Positions 45,206-61,824 of a stretch of 64,000 nucleotides of DNA are shown piece by piece. Position numbers and translations under genes: made by a program. A model generated the notes under the pieces. The model saw only the letters and a program-made list of their open reading frames with translations. It was not told where the DNA came from and did not search any database. How positions within the stretch are numbered: the first letter of the stretch is position 1; each line of letters opens with the position of its first letter. Origin of the DNA: a virus; the IMG/VR virus record IMGVR_UViG_3300035670_000068, positions 1 to 64,000 of that record; one strand, written 5' to 3'.

Positions 45206-45667
45206 TCAGACTGCTGCGTACCGGATCAGGTCGAATGCACGCTTCTCGTATTCACCTAACTGCTTGTAGGTTTCCCATGCTTGGGTAACTGTAGTAATCG
45301 GCGGCTCGTACATTTTGCGCATGATCTCTTTTTGGGAGTGAGACAGTCCTTCCCACCAATCCATTGCCAGTTCGTATTCTGGGTGCATGGAGTCAGCCAG
45401 GAGCTCTTCCATTGTTGCTTCACCCGGACCTCTGTGGGCATCGATGATCTCGAACATCTTTTCCATCGTCATGGGTTGAGAAGGCTGATTGGAGGTGAGC
45501 TTGTATTGATAGGTAGAACCGGGCTTGATTGTTCCTTGTCCTGAGCTTGAGAACGACAGGCTGCCTACGATCTCTTCCATGATCGGGATGATCATGTCCT
45601 TGTATTGGCTATCTATGTCGAAATCGATTGAGAGGTTCAGGACGATCCGGTTCTGGTTATCGGTCAT
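45206..45667 (-). CDS. Hypothetical protein
   Basis: Start MTDNQ at ATGA overlap. Confidence 0.65.
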   Translation of the reverse strand: MTDNQNRIVLNLSIDFDIDSQYKDMIIPIMEEIVGSLSFSSSGQGTIKPGSTYQYKLTSNQPSQPMTMEKMFEIIDAHRGPGEATMEELLADSMHPEYELAMDWWEGLSHSQKEIMRKMYEPPITTVTQAWETYKQLGEYEKRAFDLIRYAAV

Positions 45668-46152
45668 GAGAAGGCTCCAAAGGCTTGTGGTCTTGGCGGT
45701 GCTTTTGCTGCTGGTACAGGTTGCTCTTCTACCACTTCTCCGTCGATCTGGAACAGGTTTCTCAGGTGGTTGGTCAGGTAGGTGATTTCGTTTCGGTCGA
45801 GCCTTTCTTCTGTGAGCCTTCTCACTAGGATTTGGACGTAGGCTCTCCACGCTATCTTGAAGTCCTTGTATTCACCTGCGTCGGACTGATCCACCACCCA
45901 GACTTTCTTGGTGCCGTTCCATCCCAGGAACACCGGCATTCTGTAGGCTCCGTCGAAGATGAATTTGGCGAAGAACTGGCCATTGCTCTGGCTCATGTTC
46001 ACCGGGATTCCTTCGTCGTCCAGCTCAACGTCCCACAGGTAATGCAAGCCTGCTTCTGCTCTGCACAGGCCTTCTTCTGCCCGATTCATGTGGACCAGAA
46101 AGAACCTGGCGATCTCAGGGACTATCTTGGGATCGTGCTTGAGGTTTCTCAT
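45664..46152 (-). CDS. Paralog-array protein with C-terminal FGAFS
   Basis: W.V..F..AW..Y motif and tag. Confidence 0.75.
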   Translation of the reverse strand: MRNLKHDPKIVPEIARFFLVHMNRAEEGLCRAEAGLHYLWDVELDDEGIPVNMSQSNGQFFAKFIFDGAYRMPVFLGWNGTKKVWVVDQSDAGEYKDFKIAWRAYVQILVRRLTEERLDRNEITYLTNHLRNLFQIDGEVVEEQPVPAAKAPPRPQAFGAFS

Positions 46153-46709
46153 GACCAGGTTCCGTATGAGCTTGGTTTCGGTGCTTGTGGCTGTGGCTCA
46201 ACCAGTGGCTTATTGGGGTCTTGAAGCCTGTACAGCTGCATGAGCAAGCGGGCGTCTATCGGGTTGCTGGTTATCGTGTGGCAGAAGCATTCCCAGGCCT
46301 TCTCGAAGGTCGTGAACCGCTGGTCGTCGTTGGGCTCTGTTATCCAGGTGCCGTCTGCGCCGATCTCGTCCGTGCAGACGATCCAGACCATTCTCTCGGG
46401 CTCCCAGACTATCCAGGCCGACCCTAGCCTCTTGCCATATTTGGCTACAGCCAGGGCGAACACACCGTCTTTGGCTACCGGCTCTTCAACCCTTCCAATG
46501 CTGTTCTCCCAGCTCTCGTAGTAGGCAAAGCCTGTGGGCAGCACCAGCACCTCGTCGGAATACTCGAACGAGATCAGGTGAGGGCTGCGCTTCAATTTGG
46601 TCAGGAAGTTCGGGGTGCCATCTACGCAGACCAGAAAGGCGGTTCTATCCCGGATTTCTTCGAACGATATGGCTCTGTTGACCAGGACGTTCTGGTATTT
46701 CTTGCTCAT
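46149..46709 (-). CDS. Paralog-array protein with C-terminal YGTWS
   Basis: WIV..F..AWECF motif and tag. Confidence 0.75.
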   Translation of the reverse strand: MSKKYQNVLVNRAISFEEIRDRTAFLVCVDGTPNFLTKLKRSPHLISFEYSDEVLVLPTGFAYYESWENSIGRVEEPVAKDGVFALAVAKYGKRLGSAWIVWEPERMVWIVCTDEIGADGTWITEPNDDQRFTTFEKAWECFCHTITSNPIDARLLMQLYRLQDPNKPLVEPQPQAPKPSSYGTWS

Positions 46710-47194
46710 GACCAGGCTCCATAGAGTCTTGGCTTAGGTGTCTTGTCAGGCACTTTGCGAGGTGGCTCTTGAGCAGGTCGAGCCTCATCCCTGGCCAGGT
46801 AAACCAACATGGCCATCTTCATTTCAAACTCTTCGGAGCAAGAGCTGATCAGCTGGGAGAAGGTTGCCCAGGCATCGTGAAAATGGTCGTGGTATTCGTT
46901 CCCGGAGCACCAGCAGTTGCCTGTCCAGTAGACCTGGGCGATCACCTCTTGGTCCCGCACCAGCATGGCGAATCTCTGCTTGGCAGCCATGTTTCTCGGG
47001 ACATAAACCTCGCTGATCCGGGAGTGATCTCGAACCAGCTCCACGCCTTCTACGACCGTCAACCCCTCGTCGTTTCCGATGTGTGTCGTTACCGGCTTGA
47101 GGTTCACCGGCTTGTCGTAGAGGTCTTGACCAGGCTCATTGACCAGCTTTGGAATCATGGAGTGGTTGATCTTGATCCACACCACTTCACTCAT
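46706..47194 (-). CDS. Paralog-array protein with C-terminal YGAWS
   Basis: WC..F..AWATF motif and tag. Confidence 0.75.
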   Translation of the reverse strand: MSEVVWIKINHSMIPKLVNEPGQDLYDKPVNLKPVTTHIGNDEGLTVVEGVELVRDHSRISEVYVPRNMAAKQRFAMLVRDQEVIAQVYWTGNCWCSGNEYHDHFHDAWATFSQLISSCSEEFEMKMAMLVYLARDEARPAQEPPRKVPDKTPKPRLYGAWS

Positions 47195-47715
47195 GAGAAG
47201 GCTCCAAAGCACTCAGGCTTTTTGACGGTCTTGATCTTGGTTGGCTTCACGGCGGTCGTTTGAGCCTTGTAGATTCGCTTCATGATCCTGGCCTGGTCTG
47301 GCTCAAGTGAAACCAGGTCTGCGAACTCTTCCCAAGCCTGCATGAACAACGGGAAGGTCTCGACCTCCTTAGTGGGCACAGCGTTCTTGCTGCCGGCGCT
47401 GACGTTGTTTACAACCCAGCAGCAGCCGTCAGTGCGGTCAGGCTCGTAGTAGATCGAAAACGAGCTCCATGAGCCTTTGGCGTTCTCGAAGCGGATCAAG
47501 GCTACCGGGTTCCAGTGCTCGTCTTGAAGCCTGTCGAACGGGAAGTCCCTGCCCTCTTCCACCTCGACGTTCACGAAGTCCCGTAGGTAGAGAATCTGGT
47601 CGCTGTCGTAAGCGCCCATGCCCTCCATGATGACCTGGTAGCCTTTTACCTCTTGGTCTTCGTTAAGCCAGGTCTCAAGCGGCCCGAGCATCAGTTCGTA
47701 GGACTTGGTGGTCAT
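47191..47715 (-). CDS. Paralog-array protein with C-terminal FGAFS
   Basis: WVV..F..AWEEF motif and tag. Confidence 0.75.
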   Translation of the reverse strand: MTTKSYELMLGPLETWLNEDQEVKGYQVIMEGMGAYDSDQILYLRDFVNVEVEEGRDFPFDRLQDEHWNPVALIRFENAKGSWSSFSIYYEPDRTDGCCWVVNNVSAGSKNAVPTKEVETFPLFMQAWEEFADLVSLEPDQARIMKRIYKAQTTAVKPTKIKTVKKPECFGAFS

Positions 47716-47936
47716 GCCCACTCCCCGAACGATTCAGGCTTCGGAGCTGGAATCCGGGATTGCTCGATCTTCTCCACATGGCGATCGATCGCTCGCTTCA
47801 TGAGTTCGGTTTCGCTGGGTATCTGCTTCATCAGGGCTCTGACGGCGGCAGCTCCTACCTCTGGAGGCAGCGGCTTGTGCATGGCCGCCTCCCGACGCTC
47901 AACCTCTTTCATCAGGTAGTCAAAGTAGTCCGACAC
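47712..47936 (-). CDS. Small protein with C-terminal FGEWA
   Basis: GTG start after AGAGG; operator upstream at 47975. Confidence 0.6.
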   Translation of the reverse strand: MSDYFDYLMKEVERREAAMHKPLPPEVGAAAVRALMKQIPSETELMKRAIDRHVEKIEQSRIPAPKPESFGEWA

Positions 47937-48371
47937 TTCCCAATGCCTCTCTGCGTTTATTAGTAAATGGTTAATAACTAACTCTCTAGTTAGTAGTATG
48001 ACAGTGAGGACTTGGGAATGACAGATCACCTCGTCCGGGAGCCTGTCTCTGGAAACGCTCTATAAGCTCGTCTGACGCTTGCCCATTTCGAAGCGCTATC
48101 TGCGCTCGTCTTTTTCGAGATCGTTCGATACCGCGCAAATCTGAGCGCTTCCCGAGCGCTTCCCTGCTCAGTCATCAGCTCAGTTTTCGACTAGCGCGGG
48201 TCTATGAACAAAATCGCAACTTTTGTTGCGCTCCCGGCAGGCTGAGAGCGTGACTTGGTGCGGGGTTGGAGCTACCCGAGGTGGCATTTTGTGAAGTTCA
48301 AGTTCACAGAGGTTCACGCCTCGGTTGATCATTTTTTGAGCAATAAAAAGCCCTCACTAGGAGGGCTTGGA

Positions 48372-48602
48372 TCACATGGCCATCTTGTATTCGTGGTACA
48401 GATAGTCGAGCAGAATGGCTTTCTTGGTGTCTCTGTCGAGAACCGACCACTGAGCTTCTGCTGGCGAGCCAGAGAAGAACATGGATGCGTTCATTCCGTC
48501 ACCCTGGTCGATGAAGTCCTGGATCAGCCTTACGGAGTCATCGAGGTCGCTGTACTCACAGGCGTCGTCGATCAGCTGCTTGATCTTGGTCAGGTGACTC
48601 AT
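48372..48602 (-). CDS. Hypothetical protein
   Basis: Start MSHLTK at ATGA overlap. Confidence 0.6.
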   Translation of the reverse strand: MSHLTKIKQLIDDACEYSDLDDSVRLIQDFIDQGDGMNASMFFSGSPAEAQWSVLDRDTKKAILLDYLYHEYKMAM

Positions 48603-48922
48603 TTCGGACCCCCAGCCTGCAGGCAAGCATAGACTTTGAGGCTGACTTCCAGATCACCGAACTCGTACAGACCGGCCTGGTATCCACCGGCGTCGTAGCT
48701 CTGCAGAACGTCCTCGTTGCGAATCTTGTCGCCAATTCGAACCACGTTCAGCACTCCGCTGATGTGGCGATCTGCATCGACGAAGGCAACCCGGTCGACA
48801 TACACCATCGAGCCATCGTCGCTCTTGTCTTCCTCGACCACCGTGTAGGCGATGCGCTGACCGTTGGTTAGGCAGTACATGCGGCCGGTGTTGAAGGCGT
48901 AGAACTTGTCGTTCATGGTCAT
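48599..48922 (-). CDS. Hypothetical protein
   Basis: SD GGAG; upstream TAAAAT. Confidence 0.65.
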   Translation of the reverse strand: MTMNDKFYAFNTGRMYCLTNGQRIAYTVVEEDKSDDGSMVYVDRVAFVDADRHISGVLNVVRIGDKIRNEDVLQSYDAGGYQAGLYEFGDLEVSLKVYACLQAGGPK

Positions 48923-48998
48923 ACTCCGTTTACCCTTTCTCGCTTGTTTGTTGCTGTTGCGAGCATTTTACAAGCGAGATCGAGGCAGAAGGAGGCAA

Positions 48999-49415
48999 TT
49001 AGGACAGGCTAAGCGGGGGCCATTTGCTCAGATCGACACCGCACATGAGGCTCAGAACACCTTCGGGGATAGGCGAGAACCTGGGGAAAGACTCCTGGAC
49101 CCAATACTCGAAGCGCTGCTGGTCTGGCCAGAACACTCCATGCTGAGCAGCTGGTCCCATCCACATGCGAGCCCGGTAGTCGATGTAGGTGCCATCCGGC
49201 AGTTCGATCCACCAGTGAGTGACGCCAACCAGGTCGTCACCGGACACCGCTTCGTCATCCATGAGCGCGCGGTCAGTGAGTAGGCCTGTGTTGATGTGGT
49301 GATCGATGCCGTTCTTGTCCAGGAGCAGCGATATCACCCTGGACATGCCGTCACATTCCATGTGCCTGATTGGATCGAGGGGATCGAGCCAGGCCTGCAG
49401 CTTATCCACGCCCAT
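48999..49415 (-). CDS. Possible transglutaminase/papain-like fold protein
   Basis: ECDG..HWWIEL..IDY gives Cys-His-Asp order. Confidence 0.45.
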   Translation of the reverse strand: MGVDKLQAWLDPLDPIRHMECDGMSRVISLLLDKNGIDHHINTGLLTDRALMDDEAVSGDDLVGVTHWWIELPDGTYIDYRARMWMGPAAQHGVFWPDQQRFEYWVQESFPRFSPIPEGVLSLMCGVDLSKWPPLSLS

Positions 49416-49798
49416 CAGTCGTGATCCGCAGTCACCGCAGCGTACAGAATCCCTTCTGCGGTCTTCTTGGCCTCTTCCAGCTTGGCTTGCATCCGCGCAA
49501 CCATCTGCCTGTGAGCAGCCTCTGCATCTGACCAGACTGACGTTCTGAATACCGGCTCGAAGTGGCTCGGTTTCAACCTGCCTTCTTCGTGCATGAACAC
49601 CATAGTCTCGAAGAACAGAGGCTCCTGACCAAACCTATGGGACAGGTCGTAGCCCATGAACACAGTGCTGACCCATACATTCTCTATCATGGTCTCAGCG
49701 ACTCGCCGCTCTTCGCTTTGCATGAACAGCACCCATTCCTCTACGGATTCGCAGAGAACCGGCGCCTTGTCCTTGAGAATGTATCGGCCAAATCTCAC
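49415..49798 (-). CDS. Hypothetical protein
   Basis: VSTVFMG..FETMVF common phage motif; GTGA overlap. Confidence 0.65.
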   Translation of the reverse strand: MRFGRYILKDKAPVLCESVEEWVLFMQSEERRVAETMIENVWVSTVFMGYDLSHRFGQEPLFFETMVFMHEEGRLKPSHFEPVFRTSVWSDAEAAHRQMVARMQAKLEEAKKTAEGILYAAVTADHD

Positions 49799-50331
49799 TG
49801 CTTCACACCTTCTACCCACCAGTCGATGCTGGAGAACTCATTGGCGTACAGAACAATGTCGTTGTTCGGCATGATCTGCGCCACCTGGAAGCCATCGGTC
49901 AGCCCCAGACCGAATTTTTCTGGCTTGTTGCTTGAGCCAGAGGATATCACCTGCAGCTCACCCGGCTTAAACCCGTTGTTCTCGATGCGCTCGAAGGCCG
50001 CATACTTGAACTTCGGCATCGCAATGAACGGGCAGACCTGGACAGCGTACTCGGCACATTCCTTGTGCATGGGCAGATCAGCGAACAGTCGGTTGGAAAT
50101 ACTGATCGGGCCGCCAACGAAAGCCATTTGACCATCAAGCCTTTGACCGCAAATGCCGCACTTGTGGTTTTTGACCGCATCCACCCACTTGAGCTGATCG
50201 ATCACCCGGAAGTCAGGCTTGCCGTTGACCCACTGAACAGTGTGCGGGATCGGATAACCCCGCTCGTCCTTCTGCAGATCAGCCACGCGAGCAGGCGTTT
50301 CAACCAGGTTCAGGTCTTTCCAGGTTTTCAT
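49795..50331 (-). CDS. Zn-binding hypothetical protein
   Basis: CGICG..HKECA..CPF. Confidence 0.65.
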   Translation of the reverse strand: MKTWKDLNLVETPARVADLQKDERGYPIPHTVQWVNGKPDFRVIDQLKWVDAVKNHKCGICGQRLDGQMAFVGGPISISNRLFADLPMHKECAEYAVQVCPFIAMPKFKYAAFERIENNGFKPGELQVISSGSSNKPEKFGLGLTDGFQVAQIMPNNDIVLYANEFSSIDWWVEGVKQ

Positions 50332-50525
50332 GCTTCAAACCACTCGATCACGGACCAGTCGTAGCTCAGCTCAGAGCCATCCGGGAGGCGCCAGTTGCAG
50401 TCGCTTTCATCGACGGCGACCAGTTCGTGCTCCTGGACGTTCTTGGAGCTGCAGTGCTCAATTCGGCACAACACCTGAGAGCCCGGCTTCGGCTGTTTCT
50501 CAAGAGCCTTGACCCAGCCCATCAC
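50328..50525 (-). CDS. Small hypothetical protein (DUF551-like)
   Basis: GWVK..P..VL..V.EW. Confidence 0.5.
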   Translation of the reverse strand: MMGWVKALEKQPKPGSQVLCRIEHCSSKNVQEHELVAVDESDCNWRLPDGSELSYDWSVIEWFEA

Positions 50526-50992
50526 ATGAACCTCGCAAGCATCGGCTGTACCTTGCCGAACTTCTCTTTCTCGTAGCCTTCCTGCCAGGGCAGTTTGCCT
50601 TTGGTGTCAGGCCACACCCACTGCACAAACTCGGGCTTCTTCCAACCCATGTCCTCTGCGAAGGCGAAGGCTTGAACCGCATAGTCGTCAGCTCGACCGC
50701 TCTCGACGTTGACCACGCTCATGGGCATGTTGAACCAGTCGTCTTCCGGGCTGAGCACACCAGGGCCGCCACAGCGAGTCTTCTGGTTGACGATCTCGTC
50801 GTAGTAGCGATTCAGGTACGGAGCCACCATTCGCATATCCAGGCCGAACACGATGACTTCCGGGAGTCCGTGCGCAGCGAAGCCGATGGTGTAGGTAAAT
50901 GGCGGCGACTTCTCGTCACCGAAGATGCCGAACAGGTGCAGGCCGCAGCGGTCGACGTTCTGCTTGATATCGCCGTAGTAGGGGGAAATCAT
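50522..50992 (-). CDS. DUF4262-like protein
   Basis: FTYTIG..GLPEVIVFGL..QWVWPD..G.LPW. Confidence 0.75.
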   Translation of the reverse strand: MISPYYGDIKQNVDRCGLHLFGIFGDEKSPPFTYTIGFAAHGLPEVIVFGLDMRMVAPYLNRYYDEIVNQKTRCGGPGVLSPEDDWFNMPMSVVNVESGRADDYAVQAFAFAEDMGWKKPEFVQWVWPDTKGKLPWQEGYEKEKFGKVQPMLARFM

Positions 50993-51062
50993 TTTAGGTT
51001 CTCGCTTTCGATTAACTATGCGCTTAGTTTATCGAAGCGCATCTGGCAAGTGCTGGGCTTTG

Positions 51063-51455
51063 TCAGGGGAAGTAGCTTATTGCCGCGTGAGCAGAGTATT
51101 TCTGGAGGGTGGCGTCGTGGGTCAGCAGGATCATGCCTTCGATCTGAGCCTGGCCAATCAGAGCGCGGTCGAAGGGATCGCCGTGAATGTGAGGAAGGCT
51201 GGAGGCAGCGATAGCGTGATCGGAGCTCATGGCGAGCTCCAGGTAGCCGGCACCAACGAGAGCCGTCCTGATCACCCCAGGGTCGTACATGAAGGCGATC
51301 TTGTTGAGCGCTCGTTTGATGCCGATCTCCCAGATGCTCATGGAGCTGAAATACAGCTCGCCGGGACCGTTGATGATCTGAGGCACGCCGTTCGGAAGAG
51401 CTCCTGGACATACGCAGGCCCAGAGCAGCAGGTGAGTGTCGAGAAGGTACTTCAT
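51063..51455 (-). CDS. vapC: PIN-domain toxin (VapC family)
   Basis: LLDTHLLLW, SIWEI, HGDPFDR.LI.QA, LLTHD. Confidence 0.92.
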   Translation of the reverse strand: MKYLLDTHLLLWACVCPGALPNGVPQIINGPGELYFSSMSIWEIGIKRALNKIAFMYDPGVIRTALVGAGYLELAMSSDHAIAASSLPHIHGDPFDRALIGQAQIEGMILLTHDATLQKYSAHAAISYFP

Positions 51456-51694
51456 AGACCGAACATTTCCTCGATCTCCTTCTGGAACGGCGTGTCGATA
51501 TCATCAGGCACAGGTGGGTAAACCCCAACCAGCATACCCATGCGGCTCTTCTTCTCGGGCTCGTAAGCGACAACCTTGACCATAGGCTTGCCGGCTTTAG
51601 CGATGACGTACTCGCAGCCGCCGCTGACCACCTTCTCGATGACTTTGGACAGGTTTGTCTTGGCGTCGTGGATGTTCATGGTTTCGGTCTTCAT
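51452..51694 (-). CDS. Phd/YefM-family antitoxin
   Basis: NIHDAKTNLS..IAKAGKP; inverted repeat GATTAGCTA..TAGCTAATC upstream (51711-51736). Confidence 0.9.
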   Translation of the reverse strand: MKTETMNIHDAKTNLSKVIEKVVSGGCEYVIAKAGKPMVKVVAYEPEKKSRMGMLVGVYPPVPDDIDTPFQKEIEEMFGL

Positions 51695-51790
51695 GATGAC
51701 CTCCGCTTGTGATTAGCTAAATCAGTCTAGCTAATCCATCGCGGCGCGTGAACAGCGTTTCGTCGCAAGAAAAAGCCACCCGTAGGTGGC

Positions 51791-53789: not shown

Positions 53790-53864
53790 TGATCTCTCCT
53801 TGTGATTTTGTTTCTGAGCGTATTGTCTCGCGCTCAGCGCGGCAGCGATACGCTGTCCTTGCGG

Positions 53865-54818: not shown

Positions 54819-54990
54819 AAGTCACCCCACCATCCTTTGCGCCGATCACGTTCTTACGGAACACCGAGCGCTGTCCTTCGTCGAGCGGCCAGTCGATCTC
54901 ATGACCACAGCCAGTACACATCTTCTTGTCTTCACCGTGCAGCAGCACCAGCTCGGAGCACTTGCACTTAGGGCAAACCTTCGTCGTCAT
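54796..54990 (-). CDS. Zn-ribbon protein
   Basis: CPKC..CTGC. Confidence 0.6.
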   Translation of the reverse strand: MTTKVCPKCKCSELVLLHGEDKKMCTGCGHEIDWPLDEGQRSVFRKNVIGAKDGGVTYGACNPA

Positions 54991-55145
54991 CCCCATGTCC
55001 CATACTTGCTTTTGACTTCAAACTCTTCGAGCTCGGCGATGCCGTCCTCGATCTCCTGCAGTTCGTTGGCCCTGGCCTGCAGAACGCCGGCGAGCTCGGT
55101 CAGAACGAACTTGCGCAGCCGCTCTTCGAACGGCGGAAGGCTCAC
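54987..55145 (-). CDS. 52-aa protein with C-terminal YGTWG (not in ORF track)
   Basis: MSLPPFEERLRKF..EVKSKYGTWG; GTGA and ATGA overlaps with both neighbours. Confidence 0.6.
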   Translation of the reverse strand: MSLPPFEERLRKFVLTELAGVLQARANELQEIEDGIAELEEFEVKSKYGTWG

Positions 55146-55354: not shown

Positions 55355-55749
55355 TGCGCCGCCAGGCTTACGGAGATCGACCAGGTGTCGCCCTGGAGCA
55401 GCAGCTGCTTGGTGTCCAGGTCTACACCGCCGCAGTCATGACCGAACGAAGCAACGACCGTGTGGTTGTCGCCGCTCTTCGAGAAACTGAGGTGAGTCAG
55501 CTCGATCACGGTGCCGGCGTCGAAGTCACCCAGGAAGGGCTGAACGCCTTTCTCTCGGCTCAGCTCTTCGACCAGGCTCAGCGCCTCGATATCGGAGAAC
55601 TTGAAGGTCTGCTTGTTGCCTGCCTCGTTGGGCACGAACAGCTTCTGGAAGGCTTCCTTCTCAGCAGTCCGGCCCTTGAAGATGATCTTGCCGCTGATCT
55701 CAGCAGGCCGGCTCTGGGTCGCAACCCGGAGTTGTCGTTTCTGTCGCAT
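55351..55749 (-). CDS. Hypothetical protein
   Basis: SD AGGAG before MRQKRQ. Confidence 0.6.
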   Translation of the reverse strand: MRQKRQLRVATQSRPAEISGKIIFKGRTAEKEAFQKLFVPNEAGNKQTFKFSDIEALSLVEELSREKGVQPFLGDFDAGTVIELTHLSFSKSGDNHTVVASFGHDCGGVDLDTKQLLLQGDTWSISVSLAAQ

Positions 55750-55757
55750 ATTGGCTC

Positions 55758-56039
55758 CTATGACCATGTTCCAAATTCTTGAGGTCTACTGACCTTCTTG
55801 ACTTGCTTCGGCCTCGATTCGAGGTCGCTGTTCTCAGCCAGGCTGTCGTATTCGTCCAGCGCCATCAGATCGACCTCCTTAGCCTTCTCCATCATCGTCT
55901 TGAAGGCCTCGATGGCTTTCTTCTCCTGCATGGCTTTCATGACAGCCTCATAGGCTTCCTTCTCCACTCCGAGCTTTTCGATGGAATCGATCAGCTCGGG
56001 CATACTGGAGAAAATGCTTTTGCCTTTCCCTCGCATCAC
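55758..56039 (-). CDS. Helical protein with C-terminal FGTWS
   Basis: Coupled ORF; tag. Confidence 0.65.
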   Translation of the reverse strand: MMRGKGKSIFSSMPELIDSIEKLGVEKEAYEAVMKAMQEKKAIEAFKTMMEKAKEVDLMALDEYDSLAENSDLESRPKQVKKVSRPQEFGTWS

Positions 56040-56425
56040 GCAGCCTTCGGAAGCTGACCGCTCTCTTCCAGGAACTCGACGATCACCTGGATCGCTTTGT
56101 CCGTGAACGGAGTCGAGCGCTGATCGACTTCAACAGCCCAGGCACCGCAGCGAGAAAGGTTGCGTGCGTCATCGAGCGCTTCGGTCAGAGTGTTGAACTT
56201 CACCACGTCGAAGCGGACACCCGGCTGCTGCTCGTCTCGGCTGACGCGATACCAGGTGTTCTTGAGCTTGCCGTCCACCGTGCGGATGTACAGGATGCCC
56301 TGGTCATCCGGGTTGACGGTGCTGACAACGTGCGCGACGAAAGAGCCGTACAGCTTGTTCGTCGGGTCAAACTGGAGCGGTTTCGGGTCGCTCACACCAT
56401 CGATCATCACTACCATCTGTTTCAC
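56036..56425 (-). CDS. Hypothetical protein
   Basis: SD GAGG; operator at 56462. Confidence 0.6.
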   Translation of the reverse strand: MKQMVVMIDGVSDPKPLQFDPTNKLYGSFVAHVVSTVNPDDQGILYIRTVDGKLKNTWYRVSRDEQQPGVRFDVVKFNTLTEALDDARNLSRCGAWAVEVDQRSTPFTDKAIQVIVEFLEESGQLPKAA

Positions 56426-56484
56426 CTCGTTGCTTTGTTTGTTCTGTTCACAGCATACAGCTAACTAAGCGGTTAGTCATTCTG

Positions 56485-57126
56485 TCAGCTAAAAGACCCG
56501 AACCCTGGAACGCTGCTGGGAACGCTCTCTGAGCGCGTTTCTGTCTGAGCGCTACGCTTGCGCGTAATCGACTGGAGAACGTCACTAGCGAGCGTTTTGC
56601 GCGCTTCCCGACGCTGTTCCTGATCGACTTCTGCAGACTCGCGAACGTATCTGTCGCCGTTGTCCAACCAGGACAGATTGATCGACCATTCAAACTGGCT
56701 TCGCCACTCCCAGCGATTCATTTCGACCTCTGCATAGGCTTCTGCCATGTGCAGCGGCCAATTGTTGACCTTCGCCATGTGCTTGAGCGTGGGTTCCAGG
56801 AAGCCCATGCGCGCAGCGTTGCCGATATGCTTAACCCGGTGGCAGCTCGGGCAAAGGCTGATCAGCCCGGTCAGGGTCTGGACCTTTTTGTCGTCGTCGT
56901 AGTGCCAGATTTCATGGCACTCGACAGGGTGCTTCTTCCCTACCCCGCCGCAGATTTCACAGCGATGACCGGCGTAGACAAAACAGGCTTTCTTGAGCAG
57001 ACCCCACTGACTCTCTGTGATCCTGGCCCGCACGTTGTCGAACCACTGACCGAACGGGACCAGCTCGATGGTCAGCCTGGGCGGATCGAAGGGTTCGAAT
57101 GGGTTTTCAGCGATCATATTTGTCAT
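56485..57126 (-). CDS. HNH-type nuclease with C-terminal FGSFS
   Basis: CEICG..CHEIW..LCPSCH.VKH. Confidence 0.8.
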   Translation of the reverse strand: MTNMIAENPFEPFDPPRLTIELVPFGQWFDNVRARITESQWGLLKKACFVYAGHRCEICGGVGKKHPVECHEIWHYDDDKKVQTLTGLISLCPSCHRVKHIGNAARMGFLEPTLKHMAKVNNWPLHMAEAYAEVEMNRWEWRSQFEWSINLSWLDNGDRYVRESAEVDQEQRREARKTLASDVLQSITRKRSAQTETRSESVPSSVPGFGSFS

Positions 57127-57376
57127 ACCAGCTCTTGTTGCAGAAGCCGCCGATGTGACCCTCTTCGTTCATTCGAGGGATGATTCCACCTGCAGGGTTG
57201 CCGACGTACTGACAGCCCGTCTTTGCGTCGGTGAACAGCATCAGACCACTGCGGCCGTTCTCCGGGTCAGTGTCGTCTTTGTCCTTGAAGTAGCCATGAA
57301 GGCTGGAAACTACGATGGCGATGATCACCAGCCTGATCAGGTCTTTCTTCACCTGTTTGTAGACTTCCATAGCCAC
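57107..57376 (-). CDS. Small membrane-anchored protein (DUF6440-like)
   Basis: TM segment then TD..TGCQY..GGI.PR. Confidence 0.65.
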   Translation of the reverse strand: MAMEVYKQVKKDLIRLVIIAIVVSSLHGYFKDKDDTDPENGRSGLMLFTDAKTGCQYVGNPAGGIIPRMNEEGHIGGFCNKSWYDKYDR

Positions 57377-57379
57377 CTC

Positions 57380-57616
57380 TTACGACCAGGAGCCTACAAC
57401 TTCGGATTCGGTCTTCACGGCCTCTTCCTCTGCTGGCTTGTCTTCGATCAGAGCCAGCACATGCACCCGCCCGGCGATGTAATGCCAGTCGTGCTTGTAG
57501 CCGGTTCGCTTGGTTTCGGCAGCACAGTAGTCTTCTGCCTCCTGCTTGGACATGGCGAAGAGACCCATGCTCTTGCCCCGATCAAACACTTCCTGGTCAC
57601 ACTTTTCGGTACTCAT
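57380..57616 (-). CDS. Small protein with C-terminal VGSWS
   Basis: DWHYIAGR; tag. Confidence 0.6.
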   Translation of the reverse strand: MSTEKCDQEVFDRGKSMGLFAMSKQEAEDYCAAETKRTGYKHDWHYIAGRVHVLALIEDKPAEEEAVKTESEVVGSWS

Positions 57617-57673
57617 TTCTGTTCTCCAAATGCCATGAAGCCTGCTTTCGCAGGCTTCGGGCTCTTCCGTTGA

Positions 57674-58441
57674 TTAGGCGGACAGCATCGGCAGCAGCAG
57701 ACTGTCCGGGTTGGCGACGAGCTTCCCACCGTCCTTGCGGGCGAGCTCCAGGACTTGCAGCACCTTCATCAGCTGGGTGCATTGCGAGTTGGCAGTGCCG
57801 ACGCTGTACGGGCGAGCGATGTAGGCGTCACGCAGAGCCTTCGATGTGATCTCGCCTTGCTTGACGAGAATGTCCACCGCGATCTTGGTGTAGTTCGACA
57901 GCGAGGCGCCGTTGCTCAGGTGGGCGTAGAAGTTCACGACCTTCTCCTGAATCTTGATCGGCAGCGCATCGATCTCACCGAGCTTGGCGTCGATGACGGC
58001 TTTCAGATCGTCAGCCGGCAGCTCAGCGTTCTGCATCGTCAGAGCCAGGTAGTCGTTGAGCTTCGCGCCCAGCGCTTTCGACAGCGCTTCGGACTTCTTC
58101 ACACCGGCGACGGTGATGCGCTTGGTGGACGGAGCAGTGCGCTTGGGCTTGGTCGGCTCGATGCTGCCGGTAGCGATGCCTGCAGCGTCATCGACGGGCT
58201 CACCCACTTCGTCCATTTCAGCCAGCGCTTCGTTGCGGGCTTCTTCGATGCTGGCCTGGATGCCAACTTCTTCCAGCTCGTCGTCGCTCAGCTCGGCAAC
58301 GGGCTCTTCGATCACCAGTTCACCGGAGCCATCAGCTTCCAGTTCTTCGAACATGGCTTCCAGCTCGTCCAGTTGATCGAGCGGATCAACGGCAGCGGTG
58401 GTGGTAACAACTTCTTCTTGAACTTTCAGAGCAGCTTCCAT
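57674..58441 (-). CDS. Acidic protein with putative C-terminal winged-helix domain
   Basis: Very acidic N-terminal half; YSVGTANSQ..MKVL..L. Confidence 0.65.
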   Translation of the reverse strand: MEAALKVQEEVVTTTAAVDPLDQLDELEAMFEELEADGSGELVIEEPVAELSDDELEEVGIQASIEEARNEALAEMDEVGEPVDDAAGIATGSIEPTKPKRTAPSTKRITVAGVKKSEALSKALGAKLNDYLALTMQNAELPADDLKAVIDAKLGEIDALPIKIQEKVVNFYAHLSNGASLSNYTKIAVDILVKQGEITSKALRDAYIARPYSVGTANSQCTQLMKVLQVLELARKDGGKLVANPDSLLLPMLSA

Positions 58442-58566
58442 CTTGAGACACCTCGTATTGGTTTAAGCGTTCTGCGCTTCTTTTGTGTCGCGCTTCAACA
58501 GTTCAAATACTAAAGATCATCCTGCGGCTGATATATAGCGCCGAAAGGAAGCCCGTAGGATTGCCG

Positions 58567-59169
58567 TTACAACACCGGAATCAACGGATCAGATATCACC
58601 AAGTTAGTGCCATCAGTCATGAAGTTAGCCGGATTCTGCAGGTCAAGAAGAACATCGTGGTCGCTCTTCTCGATGTAGTCGGATATCGCCAACAATGCCC
58701 AGGACACCGATGCCGAAAACATCCTTGAAGCCGTCAGGTCTTTCAGCGCTCTCGCATGGGAAAACTTGCCCAACTCCGGCTTCTCTCCAAGCTCGCGCGC
58801 TGCAAGCCTGAAATCAACTGCGCTGGCTACGGCTTTACTCTCCAGAACCATAGTTTCATTTTCCCACTTATCCAGCGGGCGCAACTTGACCACTTCCAGC
58901 AGAGATATTTGACCGTAGTCCTGGCAGTTGAAACTTCCGTAGTCGTTCACCAACTTGGGAACACCTGGCACTCCAGACTTCAAACGAACAAAGTCTGGAT
59001 ATACCGGGTCGCAAGTTAGTTTGAGAACCGTATTGTCGGTGCATTCGTAGACGATTGAATAACAGCCGCGACCGACAATTTTCTTGCCGGTCAGAACTGG
59101 AAACTTCTCAATAATCAAATCCCGGTCTGGGTCGAATGACTCAGTGCCGGATTCACCGAATGCCATCAT
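58567..59169 (-). CDS. Protein-kinase-like fold protein
   Basis: VGRGCYSIVY, VLKLT, DL..ANFM, LVISDP; lower GC than neighbours. Confidence 0.65.
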   Translation of the reverse strand: MMAFGESGTESFDPDRDLIIEKFPVLTGKKIVGRGCYSIVYECTDNTVLKLTCDPVYPDFVRLKSGVPGVPKLVNDYGSFNCQDYGQISLLEVVKLRPLDKWENETMVLESKAVASAVDFRLAARELGEKPELGKFSHARALKDLTASRMFSASVSWALLAISDYIEKSDHDVLLDLQNPANFMTDGTNLVISDPLIPVL

Positions 59170-59660
59170 TACGACCAGCCCCCGATATTGATGCCTTTCG
59201 CGCTCGCTGCTTCCAGGAGCTCTTCGTCAACATCGATGGCCAGCTCCTTCATCACCGGCGCCAGCTCGTTGCCCTCTTCAACCAGCACCATTTCCCCGTC
59301 CTCGTCTTCGTCGAGGTAGGAGCCTGTGTATTTCAGGAGAACGTCTTCATAGGCAGCCATCGCTGCAGACTTGGTGCGGAAGGTTTCGGTGGCGCCGTGA
59401 TCGATCACCCAGCCCTTGTCTTCCAGGACACTCTCTTCCTCCCACTCGCTCTTGCGAACCTGGAGGCGGGTGCGAACGAAGATGCCGTGCGAATGCCGGT
59501 ATTCGGCGGGGAGCTTCTTGTCGTAGCGACCGATCCACTCAACCGCGATCCAGATGCGGTCGTTGCGGAACTCTTTGATGATCCAGTCCTTGCAGTGGCT
59601 CTTTTCCTCCCACTGCTTCTTCGACAGGCCTTTGCCGTCAATGTCCTGGTAGATGAACAT
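59169..59660 (-). CDS. Acidic protein with C-terminal IGGWS
   Basis: SD AGGAG; operator at 59677. Confidence 0.65.
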   Translation of the reverse strand: MFIYQDIDGKGLSKKQWEEKSHCKDWIIKEFRNDRIWIAVEWIGRYDKKLPAEYRHSHGIFVRTRLQVRKSEWEEESVLEDKGWVIDHGATETFRTKSAAMAAYEDVLLKYTGSYLDEDEDGEMVLVEEGNELAPVMKELAIDVDEELLEAASAKGINIGGWS

Positions 59661-59837
59661 GATGTTTTAGCTCCTGTAACTAACGGTTTAGTTAGCCATC
59701 CTCTCAAAAAAACGGGCCATATTTCATGCCCGCAAGAGAGATCAAAAATCAGCTAAAACACACGGAAGACGATATTTCCGCGTGTTTCAGTATGTCAATT
59801 TACCGCTAAATATTCAACATCCTCCTGAATTGTGGTT

Positions 59838-60416
59838 CTAAATGCCAACAAATTGACAGGGCTTGTCGAACATGCCGAACTCGATGCCGTTCCAGTAGGC
59901 TTTTTCAAGCACCTCAACGTCGTAATCGGCGGCGTGAGCAGCATCCGGGTCGTAATCAACGCCAGTTGCCCAGCAAAGCTCTCTCAGGTTCGGAACCTTA
60001 CCGAACCCGGTAGATGGTCGGCCTTTCAGCATCGTATCGAACACCTTGATCGGCGGCACTCGATAGCCCAAACGAATCAACTCCAGGGCGATGAAGGGTG
60101 CGTCAAAACCTTCGCCATTATGGGCGACAAAAATCTGACACATGGACATGATCTTGTGGACCTTCGGGGCAACATCCTCCCAAACCGGGCAGCCACGCAG
60201 GTCAGTGATCGAAATCCCATGCACTGCTTGAGCGCCTGGATCGATATCACGCATGGGGTTGATACGCTGATTCCAGGTCGAGCCGACCTTGCGCTTATCG
60301 CCCGTCGCCGGGTCGTATTTCCAGACACCGAAAGCTACTTCGATGATGCGGTGGCCGGACTCCTGGCTCAAGCCAGTGGTCTCGATATCGCCAACGCAGA
60401 TGTTGATGGTGCTCAT
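59838..60416 (-). CDS. DEDDh 3'-5' exonuclease (DnaQ-like)
   Basis: DIETTG, AHN..FD, HAADYD. Confidence 0.9.
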   Translation of the reverse strand: MSTINICVGDIETTGLSQESGHRIIEVAFGVWKYDPATGDKRKVGSTWNQRINPMRDIDPGAQAVHGISITDLRGCPVWEDVAPKVHKIMSMCQIFVAHNGEGFDAPFIALELIRLGYRVPPIKVFDTMLKGRPSTGFGKVPNLRELCWATGVDYDPDAAHAADYDVEVLEKAYWNGIEFGMFDKPCQFVGI

Positions 60417-60865
60417 ACCAGCTCCGTAAAGCCGCGCTTTGTCAGTCCTTCTGCCAGCTCGTTGAAGTGCTGGCAGGCCCATTTGTACTCGTCATCTGCC
60501 GAGTCGTTCTTGATTTCCTTCGTGGCCACGCGAACATCAGGCTGACGAACGATCGCAGTCATCAGCACTCGGCCAGACTCGCGATCCAGCTTGAGGATCA
60601 CGATGCGCTCAGCGGTGTAGAAGGCACGAACATCGCCGGCATCGATGTGCGACAAGCTCATGCGGCGCTCAGACGCCCACCTGCTGTACTCGTCTGGAAT
60701 CAGGCCAAGAAGAGCCATATCCAGGGCGATCAAAGCATTGAAGAAGGCGTTGTCGCTCAAGCACCCGCGCTTGTACTGGTTATCGAGCCAGGAATAGGCC
60801 TCACCAGCTTTGCGAGTAAGCTCTTCGGACAAGCTGAAATCTTCTGCCTGCATGACCATGATCAC
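60413..60865 (-). CDS. Hypothetical protein
   Basis: GTGA-coupled start chosen. Confidence 0.6.
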   Translation of the reverse strand: MIMVMQAEDFSLSEELTRKAGEAYSWLDNQYKRGCLSDNAFFNALIALDMALLGLIPDEYSRWASERRMSLSHIDAGDVRAFYTAERIVILKLDRESGRVLMTAIVRQPDVRVATKEIKNDSADDEYKWACQHFNELAEGLTKRGFTELV

Positions 60866-61014
60866 GCACTCGCCAGCCGACGCTTCTGACGAATCCGGCT
60901 GCACTTCGAATGGTTAGTGGTGGCGTTACGGTGCCTGCCGCAAACGTCGCAGTAGGAATTGCACGCCTTCACGATGCTGCGCATACGCAGCGGGACAACC
61001 TTGAACTCTTGCAT
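60862..61014 (-). CDS. 50-aa Zn-finger-like protein (not in ORF track)
   Basis: CDVCGRHR..NHSKCSRIRQ; operator at 61023. Confidence 0.55.
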   Translation of the reverse strand: MQEFKVVPLRMRSIVKACNSYCDVCGRHRNATTNHSKCSRIRQKRRLASA

Positions 61015-61075
61015 ATTGGAACTCACTCACTCGTTACTGATTTATTATGACAGCGCTACGACGGCAGGGGTTGGG

Positions 61076-61432
61076 TCACAGCCCTGCCCTCTCTTCTGCT
61101 GCCAGGAGAGCGTCACGACGCTTCGAGAAGCCGATGCAGGCGACGTTCTTGCCGCACGGCTCGCCCGTTGGGTAAACAGCCACGCTATCCGGGTCATCGA
61201 CAGCCTGAGCGTTCTTGATCATCCAGTCGGGCAGACAGGAAATGCTCGGGCTCTGCTGGTTCTCGTCATAGACCCAGCAAGTGACCTGGCGAACCTTGTC
61301 GTGGCGCACACTGACGTAAGGGAACGGCTCGTTGATCGACTTGTGGCGAGCTTCACGAAGGCGCTCAGCGTCAGTTTGAGGCTTGCAGCCGGCGATAATC
61401 AGAGCAGCGGCGATCAGGATCAGGCGCTTCAT
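61076..61432 (-). CDS. Putative lipoprotein
   Basis: Lipobox IAGC; HD..RQVTCW..ISCLP. Confidence 0.7.
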   Translation of the reverse strand: MKRLILIAAALIIAGCKPQTDAERLREARHKSINEPFPYVSVRHDKVRQVTCWVYDENQQSPSISCLPDWMIKNAQAVDDPDSVAVYPTGEPCGKNVACIGFSKRRDALLAAEERAGL

Positions 61433-61824
61433 GAGAACATTCCTATGCCGAGCTTCTCGGCGTTCTGAGCGATTTCCAGTCGAACAGCTTCGACCAGGCG
61501 CTCCAGGGTTTGACGATCCAGAGCCAGGTCTTTGCCGACTCGCTTCATGACCGCGATGAACTGGCCCTGCATAGCGTCACTGGACGCCAGCAGCGCTTCG
61601 CGAACCATGCTCTCGATCATGGCCTCGTCGGAGATCACCTTTTCGAGAGCTCGACTCACCGCAGCCTTGATCACCAGCTCGTTGCCGGTGATCACCTGGT
61701 CGACCATTCGATTGACCTGAACCTTGATCTGAGAACCGCTGCCGAGCATGGCGTCGCGGATTGCCTGGTGAGCAGCAGCCTCAACTGTGCTCTGCAGGCC
61801 GGTGATGGTCAGAGAATCAGTCAT
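61429..61824 (-). CDS. Helical protein with C-terminal IGMFS
   Basis: Coupled ORF; tag-like end. Confidence 0.6.
   Translation of the reverse strand: MTDSLTITGLQSTVEAAAHQAIRDAMLGSGSQIKVQVNRMVDQVITGNELVIKAAVSRALEKVISDEAMIESMVREALLASSDAMQGQFIAVMKRVGKDLALDRQTLERLVEAVRLEIAQNAEKLGIGMFS

What the first reader, a model, noticed from the sequence alone, without database searches (positions are those of the whole stretch)
45664..61824. Shared C-terminal tag G-x-[W/F]-S on about 11 mostly unrelated early proteins
Seen C-termini: PRPQAFGAFS (45664), PKPSSYGTWS (46149), PKPRLYGAWS (46706), KKPECFGAFS (47191), PKPESFGEWA (47712), SKYGTWG (54987), SRPQEFGTWS (55758), VPGFGSFS (HNH, 56485), EVVGSWS (57380), INIGGWS (59169), LGIGMFS (61429). 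The tag usually follows a flexible linker. Caveat: in several genes the Gly and Ser codons double as the GGAG SD and ATGA overlap of the next gene. That does not explain the aromatic positions, or the copies at 56485, 57380 and 59169 that use other codons. Inference: a common docking peptide, like an SSB tail or clamp motif. It could recruit diverse cargo to one hub, route proteins into the capsid, or act as a degron (the phage encodes an HslV-like protease).
Basis: partly seen in the sequence, partly recalled or inferred. Interest (0 to 1): 0.8.

Follow-up and report, generated by a model that had tools for sequence, protein, structure and literature searches.

The report
Shared C-terminal address tag, phage proteins
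About one in eleven proteins of this 110-kb phage, and of its relatives infecting Pseudomonas, Rhizobium and Xanthomonas, ends in the same short peptide (hydrophobic-Gly-x-Trp/Phe plus at most one small residue); selection keeps it at the protein level and it looks like an undescribed address label, but the partner that reads it is not identified.

Summary
All 11 tails are present as written. Three more lie in the same genome outside the window, so 14 of 159 predicted proteins end in G-x-[W/F]-[S/G/A] against 0.13-0.34 expected.

It is not a by-product of SD/ATGA overlaps. Only 7 of the 14 tags sit at such overlaps, 24 other NTGA overlaps lack the motif, and all four Gly codons and both Ser codon families are used.

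The tag recurs in all ten related genomes I examined: nickie, five IMG/VR genomes, Rhizobium phage RHEph10, Xanthomonas phage JGB6, and a weak W-A-T-W variant in SSU5. In seven of them it marks 74 proteins in 50 unrelated families. Each lineage has its own flavour (…WS, …WA, FGRF-COOH, YGxW-COOH). Orthologues keep the tag while the linker before it diverges.

The oldest carriers are a WGR-domain protein next to primase and a protein after SbcC.

The best reading is a C-terminal docking motif read by one common partner. That partner is unidentified. HslV and the beta-clamp are unlikely readers. The CobT-like vWA protein with its CobS-like ATPase is my best but unproven candidate.

This scan has found shared C-terminal tags before on other phage DNA, with different sequences.

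The parts
45664..46152 (-). 162-aa orphan protein ending PRPQAFGAFS; the tag codons are the last five before the stop at 45664-45666
   Evidence: -4 ATGA overlap with the next gene; weak paralogue of the next three genes
46149..46709 (-). 186-aa orphan protein ending PKPSSYGTWS
   Evidence: no Pfam or PHROG family
46706..47194 (-). 162-aa orphan protein ending PKPRLYGAWS
47191..47715 (-). 174-aa orphan protein ending KKPECFGAFS
47712..47936 (-). 74-aa orphan protein ending PKPESFGEWA
54987..55145 (-). 52-aa protein ending SKYGTWG; its orthologues in G001 (YGKWA) and nickie (MGGWA) are also tagged
55758..56036 (-). 92-aa orphan protein ending SRPQEFGTWS; stop is TAG and the next gene starts 8 nt later, so there is no ATGA overlap
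   Evidence: its residues 50-92 were the partner in the complex job
56485..57117 (-). 210-aa HNH endonuclease whose roughly 30-residue C-terminal extension ends VPGFGSFS (Ser = AGC); 68 nt of spacer follow
   Evidence: PHROG 5200, E 7e-49; the orthologues in nickie, G001 and G002 are 178-184 aa and lack both extension and tag
57380..57616 (-). 78-aa protein ending EVVGSWS; the nickie orthologue ends ...VSDWA (degenerate tag)
59169..59660 (-). 163-aa protein downstream of dnaQ ('family A') ending INIGGWS; folded domain at 1-130, flexible tail at 136-163
   Evidence: the GGWS end is invariant in 44 cluster representatives at 51-100% identity; AlphaFold2 pLDDT is about 90 for residues 1-130 and below 50 for the tail; no fold match
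61429..61824 (-). 131-aa protein ending LGIGMFS; its orthologues in nickie and G002 (about 29% identical) end G[MA]GAFA
36969..37442 (-).
   Evidence: 38% identical to the nickie gene annotated 'peptidase HslV family'; weak Pfam Proteasome hit; absent from the tag-bearing genomes G003, G004 and G005

Best explanation
The peptide is a C-terminal short linear motif that acts as an address tag. Its form is [K/R]-P-x-x-(F/Y/W/I)-G-x-(W/F), followed by nothing or by one small residue, then the free carboxylate. It sits at the end of a flexible linker.

I propose that it docks many otherwise unrelated non-structural phage proteins onto one common reader protein. The oldest carriers are a WGR-domain protein encoded next to primase and a protein encoded after SbcC. 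The tag was later copied onto many lineage-specific small proteins, an HNH nuclease, a Gam-like protein and an ExoX_C protein.

Shown here: the enrichment; the need for a free C-terminus; selection at the protein level; the flexible linker; spread over about 50 families; and lineage-wide shifts of the consensus.

Inferred: that a single reader exists and co-evolves with the tag.

In that model the aromatic residues fill a pocket and the terminal carboxylate lies at or near the MIDAS metal. This would resemble the way Ku vWA domains collect repair factors through C-terminal Ku-binding motifs. That step is speculation.
For: Enrichment: 14 of 159 proteins carry the tag against 0.13-0.34 expected. 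With the looser regex G.[WF][SGA]?$ the counts are 6-16 per genome in nickie and five IMG/VR relatives, against about 0.7 expected. RHEph10 has 7 (NPxFGRF-COOH) and JGB6 has at least 6 (PExYGxW-COOH). The nickie and RHEph10 carriers coincide with CDS ends in the GenBank annotation.

Free C-terminus: 61 of 148 occurrences of [FYW]G.[WF] in 1,231 proteins lie 0-1 residues from the end.

Protein-level selection: across 81 tags the Gly codons are GGA 34, GGG 24, GGC 12 and GGT 11, and Ser is coded by TCN and AGY. Only 31 of the 81 are at -4 overlaps and 21 have more than 20 nt downstream. In 36 orthologue pairs the core is 77% identical, against 33% for the 20 residues before it and 46% for the body. 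In pairs whose bodies are under 40% identical the figures are 72%, 18% and 32%. Family A keeps GGWS in 44 of 44 clusters. In the WGR family, 40 of 41 representatives (21-68% identical) end WGxF[GASC], and W270, G271 and F273 are as invariant as the domain core.

Modularity: 74 tags fall in 50 BLAST families.

Linker: residues -21 to -7 are richer in disorder-promoting residues (0.79 against 0.65, p = 5e-21) and in Pro. The AlphaFold2 tails are low-confidence.

Coordinated shifts by lineage: the terminal residue is S in this phage, A in nickie and G002, and absent in G003, G005, RHEph10 and JGB6.

For CobT as reader: it is in the core set of all relatives, it is the only vWA protein seen, and its MIDAS motif DxSGS is intact in all of them. 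A vWA MIDAS can bind a protein's C-terminal carboxylate, as factor B does with C3b (PMC12847986). C-terminal Ku-binding motifs of unrelated repair factors dock on Ku vWA domains (PMC8073936; 10.1101/2023.12.12.570754).
Against: No reader has been shown. About 40 core proteins are shared by every tag-bearing genome, so phyletic patterns cannot single out CobT, and a host protein is equally possible. Vibrio phage ICP2 has a CobT/CobS pair but no recurring C-terminal motif. SSU5 has the pair but only about 3 variant tags. The tag is over-represented at -4 overlaps (38% against 20% of all genes), where it favours GGA/GGG codons, so part of its codon choice also serves translational coupling. A degron is likewise 'read by a partner' and would leave the same sequence signature.
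Confidence: 0.6

Rival explanations
1. C-terminal degron. The tag marks early and middle proteins for timed destruction by a host AAA+ protease (Lon, ClpXP/ClpAP or HslUV), or in some lineages by the phage HslV working with host HslU.
For: The tag needs a free C-terminus on a flexible tail, as ssrA-type and SulA-type degrons do (my own knowledge). The carriers are non-structural and many are small accessory proteins. Several lineages encode an HslV-like peptidase.
Against: HslV is absent from the tag-bearing genomes G003-G005. The oldest and best conserved carriers are replication/repair accessory proteins (WGR protein, the protein after SbcC) kept across very different hosts. The consensus shifts by lineage, which fits a co-evolving phage partner at least as well as it fits conserved host proteases. 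No stability data exist.
Confidence: 0.17
2. Binding motif for the host beta sliding clamp. The tags tether phage DNA-metabolism proteins to DnaN.
For: The format matches: a short hydrophobic motif at the extreme C-terminus, as in Pol II (QLGLF-COOH) and Pol IV. The phage has a DnaE-type polymerase and I saw no clamp gene. Identifiable carriers are DNA-related.
Against: The published definition is Q-phi-x-[L/M]-[F/L] or Q-phi-x-[L/M]-x-[F/L], Gln is important for affinity, and Phe-to-Trp weakens binding (PMC11139829). The tags have no conserved Gln. The residue before the aromatic is mostly A/T/S/G. The aromatic is Trp in 44 of 81 tags. The phage DnaE carries its own classical-looking tail, QVAEIF(T), which differs from the tag.
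Confidence: 0.04
3. Capsid-targeting or packaging signal. The tag loads proteins into the prohead for ejection with the DNA, like encapsulin cargo-loading peptides or T4 capsid-targeting sequences.
For: Encapsulin cargo peptides are C-terminal and Gly/hydrophobic-rich (my own knowledge). Tails such as LGIGMFS look superficially alike.
Against: None of the 38 genes in the structural/packaging block is tagged (hypergeometric P = 0.018). Carriers lie in the replication/recombination and small-gene regions, and the conserved ones are DNA-metabolism accessory proteins. No virion proteomics was found for this group.
Confidence: 0.04
4. Nucleotide-level artefact. The motif is only the in-frame reading of an SD (GGAG) plus ATGA stop/start overlap.
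For: 31 of 81 tags sit at -4 overlaps, against 20% of all genes. There the Gly codon is mostly GGA/GGG and the last codon mostly TCA/GCA.
Against: 50 of 81 tags are not at -4 overlaps and 21 have more than 20 nt downstream. All four Gly codons and both Ser codon families occur. The W/F position is not part of any signal. 24 NTGA overlaps in this genome lack the motif. Lineages whose tags end at the aromatic residue have no TCA/GCA codon at all.
Confidence: 0.02
5. HbYX-like tail that docks into the phage HslV-like (proteasome-type) peptidase.
For: In the Pseudomonas lineages the tag has a penultimate aromatic followed by one more residue at the C-terminus, as in HbYX tails of proteasome activators and HslU C-termini (my own knowledge). 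An HslV-like gene lies at 36969-37442.
Against: HslV is missing from G003-G005, which have 6-7 tags each. In G003, G005, RHEph10 and JGB6 the aromatic residue is the last one, not the penultimate.
Confidence: 0.02

Closest known systems
Ku-binding motifs (X-KBM of XLF, P-KBM of PAXX, R-KBM of RAG2) docking on the vWA domains of Ku80/Ku70
   Same: Several unrelated DNA-end-processing factors carry a 10-15-residue motif at the very C-terminus: basic residues, then hydrophobic-Phe, then one last residue (Ser in XLF). Here the tail is [K/R]-P-x-x-Phi-G-x-[W/F]-[S/A/G]-COOH, on WGR, HNH, Gam-like and ExoX_C proteins and on a protein encoded after SbcC. The phage also encodes one vWA protein.
   Different: The sequences are not alignable beyond the general format. 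Many carriers here are tiny orphan proteins. Binding to the CobT-like vWA domain is untested.
Clamp-binding motifs (bacterial beta-clamp CBM; the C-terminal tails of T4 gp43/gp33/gp55 that bind gp45)
   Same: The logic is the same: one hub, many clients, each carrying a short hydrophobic motif that is often at the extreme C-terminus.
   Different: The defining residues of the beta-clamp motif (Gln, L/M, final F/L) are absent, and Trp is common. DnaE has a separate classical tail. I did not identify a phage clamp.
MoxR AAA+ / vWA chaperone pairs (CobS-CobT, NorQ-NorD, CbbQ-CbbO; the phage MoxR plus metallopeptidase-vWA pair of Iyer et al. 2021, PMC7824862)
   Same: The genome encodes a CobS-like AAA_5 ATPase and a CobT-like protein with a zincin-like N-domain, an acidic linker and a vWA domain. 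Such vWA adaptors bring clients to the motor, and no cobalamin genes were seen.
   Different: No client-recognition peptide is known for these pairs. ICP2 has the pair without the tag. The link to the tag is circumstantial.
Shared C-terminal tags found earlier in this scan on other phages (e1-4772764, e1-5405666, e1-831089, e1-5772389)
   Different: The peptides differ (…PExxL, KTLI, NWKxVLK, [ST]x[WF]ER[LIV]) and so do the phage groups. Those are unchecked AI notes.

Membership tests
Beta-clamp-binding motif (CBM) | Gln at position 1 (Q-phi-x-[L/M]-[F/L] or Q-phi-x-[L/M]-x-[F/L]) | tested here: not met
   In the logo of 81 tags the positions before Phi-G are G/N/D/A/S/E and E/P/S, with no conserved Gln. 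Definition taken from PMC11139829.
Beta-clamp-binding motif (CBM) | Leu/Met immediately before the final hydrophobic residue, and a final residue of F/L (Trp weakens binding) | tested here: not met
   The residue before the aromatic is A 19, S 12, G 12, T 9, R 6 and M 5 of 81. The aromatic is W in 44 and F in 37.
Beta-clamp-binding motif (CBM) | Binds the pocket between domains II and III of DnaN | not testable with these tools
It needs ITC or SPR, or a dedicated model.
Ku-binding motif (X-/P-KBM type) | Located at the extreme C-terminus of otherwise unrelated DNA-repair factors | tested here: met
   61 of 148 core occurrences are 0-1 residues from the end. Carriers include WGR, HNH, Gam-like and ExoX_C proteins.
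Ku-binding motif (X-/P-KBM type) | Basic residues upstream of a hydrophobic-Phe-(Ser/Asp)-COOH end | tested here: inconclusive
   K/R occupies position -7 in 33 of 81 tags and Pro occupies -6 in 19 of 81. The end is Phi-G-x-[W/F]-(S/A/G), not L-F-S, so only the format is alike.
   No Ku-vWA protein is present. The only vWA protein is CobT-like. This is therefore an analogy, not membership.
HbYX / HslU-type tail docking on a proteasome-like peptidase | Penultimate Tyr or aromatic followed by exactly one residue | tested here: not met
   In G003, G005, RHEph10 and JGB6 the aromatic residue is the last residue.
HbYX / HslU-type tail docking on a proteasome-like peptidase | The peptidase co-occurs with the tails | tested here: not met
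   There is no HslV homologue in G003-G005.
SSB-type acidic C-terminal tip (DDDIPF) | An acidic run before a terminal hydrophobic-Pro-Phe | tested here: not met
   The linker is Pro/Lys/Arg-rich, not acidic. The phage's own gp32-like SSB has a separate acidic tail.
Encapsulin cargo-loading peptide / phage capsid-targeting sequence | Carriers are loaded into the shell or virion | not testable with these tools
   No virion proteomics was available. Indirectly, 0 of 38 genes in the structural block are tagged.
Client tag of a MoxR/vWA (CobS/CobT-like) machine | Direct binding of the tag to the vWA (MIDAS) or zincin-like domain | not testable with these tools
   The complex job gave no verdict. 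It needs peptide binding assays with a MIDAS mutant.
Client tag of a MoxR/vWA (CobS/CobT-like) machine | Tag and CobS/CobT pair co-occur | tested here: inconclusive
   All ten tag-bearing genomes have the pair. So do about 40 other core genes, and ICP2 has the pair without a tag.

The most novel reading that the evidence does not exclude
The CobS/CobT-like genes that phage genome papers label 'cobalamin/porphyrin biosynthesis' encode the reader of this tag. The vWA domain (and/or the zincin-like domain) of the CobT-like protein would capture the aromatic C-terminal tail and its free carboxylate, and hand a whole set of clients to the MoxR motor or gather them with it. The clients would be DNA-end and replication accessory factors plus many small host-takeover proteins. 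This would amount to a phage analogue of the Ku-vWA/KBM hub, and would give phage cobST genes a first defined function and a defined client code.
Probability: 0.2. Interest if true: 0.85.

Novelty: new variant of a known kind. Interest (0 to 1): 0.7.

Why it matters
Shared terminal docking peptides organise replication and repair machines in cells, for example through clamp motifs, SSB tails and Ku-binding motifs. Here a single, easily recognised peptide marks 5-10% of the proteome in most of the relatives examined (about 3 variant tags in SSU5), in a widespread group of roughly 100-120-kb siphophages and phage-plasmids. The group includes cultured phages of Pseudomonas syringae, Rhizobium, Xanthomonas and, in weak form, Salmonella phage SSU5. 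Most carriers are proteins of unknown function.

The tag gives a direct experimental handle. One peptide pull-down should reveal the hub, and the tag immediately groups dozens of orphan proteins into one functional network. It could also serve as a portable recruitment tag. I found no description of the motif in the genome papers of these phages or in the full-text searches.

Tried and rejected
1. Complex prediction with P. aeruginosa DnaN, the CobT-like vWA domain (alignment A1, residues 395-715), Mg, and residues 50-92 of the 55758-56036 protein. Score 0.01 against a mark of 0.32; 'no answer'. This is not evidence either way.

2. HslV as reader: rejected because the gene is absent from G003-G005.

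3. Beta-clamp motif: rejected on the defining residues.

4. SD/ATGA artefact: rejected as the sole cause.

6. Looking for the tag in an unrelated phage that has CobS/CobT (Vibrio phage ICP2): no recurring C-terminal motif.

7. Function of the carriers. PHROGs and Pfam gave only HNH, weak to strong WGR hits, and ExoX_C. The AlphaFold2 model of family A has no PDB fold match. The model of the primase-adjacent family gives a WGR-like match only (2ra8_A, Z 5.7, rmsd 1.9 over 62 residues; PARP1 WGR, Z 4.4).

8. The unknown core proteins at 57674-58441, genome 83063-83980 and genome 105833-106573 were checked as possible clamps or hubs: PDB sequence search for the first two, ESM Atlas for 57674-58441 and 105833-106573. 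Nothing useful came out.

9. The search for related loci with family A found no IMG/VR relatives.

11. Megablast of the region against GenBank phages found no near relative. The distant search found only short matches to nickie and hairong.

12. Sequencing-run tools were not used, because RNA data for this metagenomic virus seemed unlikely.

Full report
**What the window is.** The window is bases 1-64000 of a complete 110,316-bp virus record with direct terminal repeats. Nearly all genes are on the minus strand. A structural and packaging block lies at about 0.1-32.6 kb. A tRNA cluster lies at 35.8-36.4 kb. A long run of small genes follows at 37-63 kb. The replication, recombination and nucleotide-metabolism module continues beyond the window, with thymidylate kinase (still inside the window), ThyA, NrdAB, RuvC, SbcCD, RecA, a FEN-type exonuclease, a gp32-like SSB, DnaE, a sigma-like protein, CobS-like and CobT-like proteins, ligase, primase and DnaB. 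The nearest cultured relatives are the Pseudomonas syringae Nickievirus phages, at roughly 60% amino-acid identity.

**Checking the observation.**
- All eleven tails read as reported.
- With my own codon-usage gene caller (159 genes), 14 proteins end in G-x-[W/F]-[S/G/A]. The three extra ones are at genome 73932-74657, 74722-75444 and 100096-100920.
- The expected number is 0.13-0.34. No shuffle of the last ten residues gave more than 4 in 20,000 trials.
- The residue before Gly is always hydrophobic.
- The four genes at 45664-47715 are weak paralogues. Everything else is unrelated by BLASTP. Only the HNH endonuclease has a family name.

**Is it only SD plus ATGA read in frame?** No.
- In this genome 7 of the 14 tags are at -4 overlaps, 24 other NTGA overlaps lack the motif, and 4 tags are followed by more than 60 nt.
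- Across nine genomes (81 tags), 31 are at -4 overlaps and 21 have more than 20 nt downstream.
- Gly is coded by all four codons (GGA 34, GGG 24, GGC 12, GGT 11), and Ser is coded by TCN and AGY.
- Tags are nevertheless about twice as frequent at -4 overlaps as genes in general (38% against 20%), and there they favour GGA/GGG and TCA/GCA.
- So the amino acids are what is selected, and the codons are co-opted for translational coupling where a gene follows directly.

**Relatives.** I assembled the following genomes:
- Pseudomonas phage nickie;
- five complete IMG/VR genomes, found through TerL at 63-88% identity;
- Rhizobium phage RHEph10;
- the first 100 kb of Xanthomonas phage JGB6;
- the first 100 kb of Salmonella phage SSU5.

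All share the same replication-module synteny, including the CobT-like and CobS-like genes. Tag counts with the regex G.[WF][SGA]?$ are:

| Genome | Tagged / all proteins | Typical ending |
|---|---|---|
| This phage | 14 / 159 | …[W/F]-S |
| nickie | 15 / 165 | …[W/F]-A |
| G001 | 9 / 134 | …[W/F]-S/A/G |
| G002 | 16 / 168 | …[W/F]-A |
| G003 | 7 / 173 | aromatic is the last residue |
| G004 | 7 / 137 | W-G-[A/S]-W-S |
| G005 | 6 / 131 | mostly aromatic last |
| RHEph10 | 7 / 164 | NPxFGRF-COOH |
| JGB6 | at least 6 | PExYGxW-COOH |

About 0.7 are expected per genome. SSU5 has only about three variant tails, W-A-T-W and A-W-D-W. Two of them are on the primase-adjacent and SbcC-adjacent proteins. 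The nickie and RHEph10 carriers coincide with CDS ends in the GenBank annotation, so the result does not depend on my gene caller. Each lineage has its own consensus, and it is shared by all of that lineage's carriers.

**Evidence that the tag is a selected, modular, C-terminal linear motif.**
1. Position: 61 of 148 occurrences of [FYW]G.[WF] in 1,231 proteins are 0-1 residues from the C-terminus.
2. Modularity: 74 tagged proteins from seven genomes fall into 50 BLAST families. The HNH endonuclease of this phage carries the tag on a roughly 30-residue extension that its orthologues lack.
3. Conservation:
   - In 36 orthologue pairs the four-residue core is 77% identical, against 33% for the preceding 20 residues and 46% for the body. 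For pairs with bodies under 40% identical the figures are 72%, 18% and 32%.
   - The family of the 59169-59660 protein ends in GGWS in all 44 cluster representatives.
   - The primase-adjacent family ends in W-G-x-F-[G/A/S/C] in 40 of 41 representatives, down to 21% identity. W270, G271 and F273 are as invariant as the core of its domain.
4. Context: the 15 residues before the tag are enriched in disorder-promoting residues and in Pro. In both AlphaFold2 models the tail is low-confidence and detached from a well-folded body.

**Who carries it.**
- The carriers found throughout the group are the protein next to primase and the protein or proteins after SbcC.
- The primase-adjacent protein has a WGR domain. 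Pfam gives E = 9e-16 in RHEph10 and weak hits in G003, G004 and G005. The model's structural matches are weak (2ra8_A, Z 5.7, rmsd 1.9 over 62 residues; PARP1 WGR, Z 4.4).
- Others with a recognisable function are an HNH endonuclease (this phage), a Gam-like end-binding protein (nickie, G002) and an ExoX_C protein (G003).
- The remainder are small lineage-specific orphans.
- No gene of the structural/packaging block is tagged: 0 of 38, P = 0.018.

**Who reads it.** This could not be settled.
- The HslV-like peptidase is ruled down. It is missing from three complete tag-bearing genomes, and the aromatic residue is terminal rather than penultimate in four lineages.
- The beta-clamp is unlikely. 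The published motif needs Gln and L/M, and Trp weakens binding. The tags have none of these features, while the phage DnaE has its own QVAEIF(T) tail.
- About 40 core proteins co-occur with the tag, so presence and absence cannot pick one.
- My best candidate is the CobT-like protein, for four reasons.
  - It is the only vWA protein I saw, and its MIDAS motif is intact everywhere.
  - vWA MIDAS sites can bind a C-terminal carboxylate, as in factor B and C3b.
  - The vWA domains of Ku collect unrelated end-processing factors through C-terminal motifs of similar format.
  - Phage MoxR/vWA pairs have been proposed as chaperone and co-chaperone without known clients (PMC7824862).
- Against this candidate: ICP2 has the pair but no tag.
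- The single complex prediction allowed gave no verdict.
They also reported an 'aromatic end-tag' beside a CobS/CobT-like module on a plasmid. These are unchecked leads and I do not count them as evidence.

**Verdict.**
- The finding is real, strongly non-random and conserved across a broad phage group. As far as the full-text searches reach, it is undescribed.
- It most likely works as an address or docking tag read by one partner (about 0.6). A C-terminal degron is the main rival (about 0.17).
I put the CobT-like vWA protein at about 0.2-0.25.
- The kind of system (a shared terminal linear motif) is known. This motif, its carriers and its phage group are new.

Noticed in passing
genome 89924-92071 (outside the window; L003:5924-8071), with its relatives: The N-terminal zincin-like domain of the CobT-like protein has an intact HExxH in G003, G004, G005, RHEph10, SSU5 and ICP2. 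In this phage, nickie, G001 and G002 it reads GFLDGEIAKVLY, with both His residues lost. The lineages with the dead site are those whose tags carry the extra terminal S/A/G. The two traits share one clade, so this counts as a single evolutionary event.
   Followed up: partly
genome 84038-87412 (DnaE, outside the window): The phage DnaE-type polymerase ends in QVAEIF(T), and in QVADIF.. in relatives. This resembles the C-terminal clamp/tau-binding motif QVELEF of E. coli Pol III alpha, which suggests the phage uses the host clamp.
   Followed up: no
window 32652-34343 (+): The DEAD/ResIII helicase has a conserved motif near its C-terminus, F-[DN]-[FL]-x-x-[LA]-G-F, followed by 0-7 residues in most relatives (less clear in G005 and RHEph10). 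It is tag-like but not terminal.
   Followed up: no
all tag sites at -4 overlaps, e.g. window 45664-47936: Where a gene follows with an ATGA overlap, the tag's Gly codon is GGA/GGG (an SD-like GGAG 7 nt upstream) and the last codon is TCA/GCA. One peptide thus doubles as a translational-coupling signal. Tags are about twice as common at such junctions as genes in general.
   Followed up: yes
G001 (L088-L093): My gene caller makes the RecA homologue of G001 725 aa, about twice the usual length (possibly an intein or a fusion). It makes the CobS homologue only 207 aa, possibly split. G003's best DnaE match is only 784 aa.
   Followed up: no
L122 (OQ436456.1, Xanthomonas phage JGB6) about 29.4-40.5 kb: The record is full of frameshift-split genes, and its product names look offset from the sequence. 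tblastn places CobT and CobS under CDSs labelled 'PHP domain/DNA polymerase III alpha', and DnaE under CDSs labelled exonuclease, recombinase, metallophosphoesterase and AAA ATPase.
   Followed up: partly
genome 68495-69493 (NrdB) and relatives: The small subunit of ribonucleotide reductase ends in an aromatic residue (…LSFD, …GLEW, …GGALAW), the usual R1-binding tail. This gives false positives for looser versions of the tag regex.
   Followed up: yes
L124/L125 (Salmonella phage SSU5) 38241-39035 and 66436-67182: In SSU5 the primase-adjacent and SbcC-adjacent proteins end in …GWATW and …TWATW. The Gly of the tag is replaced by Ala, and the orphan-gene expansion seen in the Pseudomonas, Rhizobium and Xanthomonas phages is missing.
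   Followed up: partly
genome 88612-89829 (CobS-like, outside the window): The CobS-like ATPase has an extra N-terminal C2H2-type finger (CQICGEEVHSIPTHLKSAH). Its C-terminus is conserved as [KQ]-[RK]-[IVLH]-[FL]-[GA] in most relatives (not in G005; two extra residues in G003). In bona fide CobS the last helix binds the N-domain of CobT.
   Followed up: no
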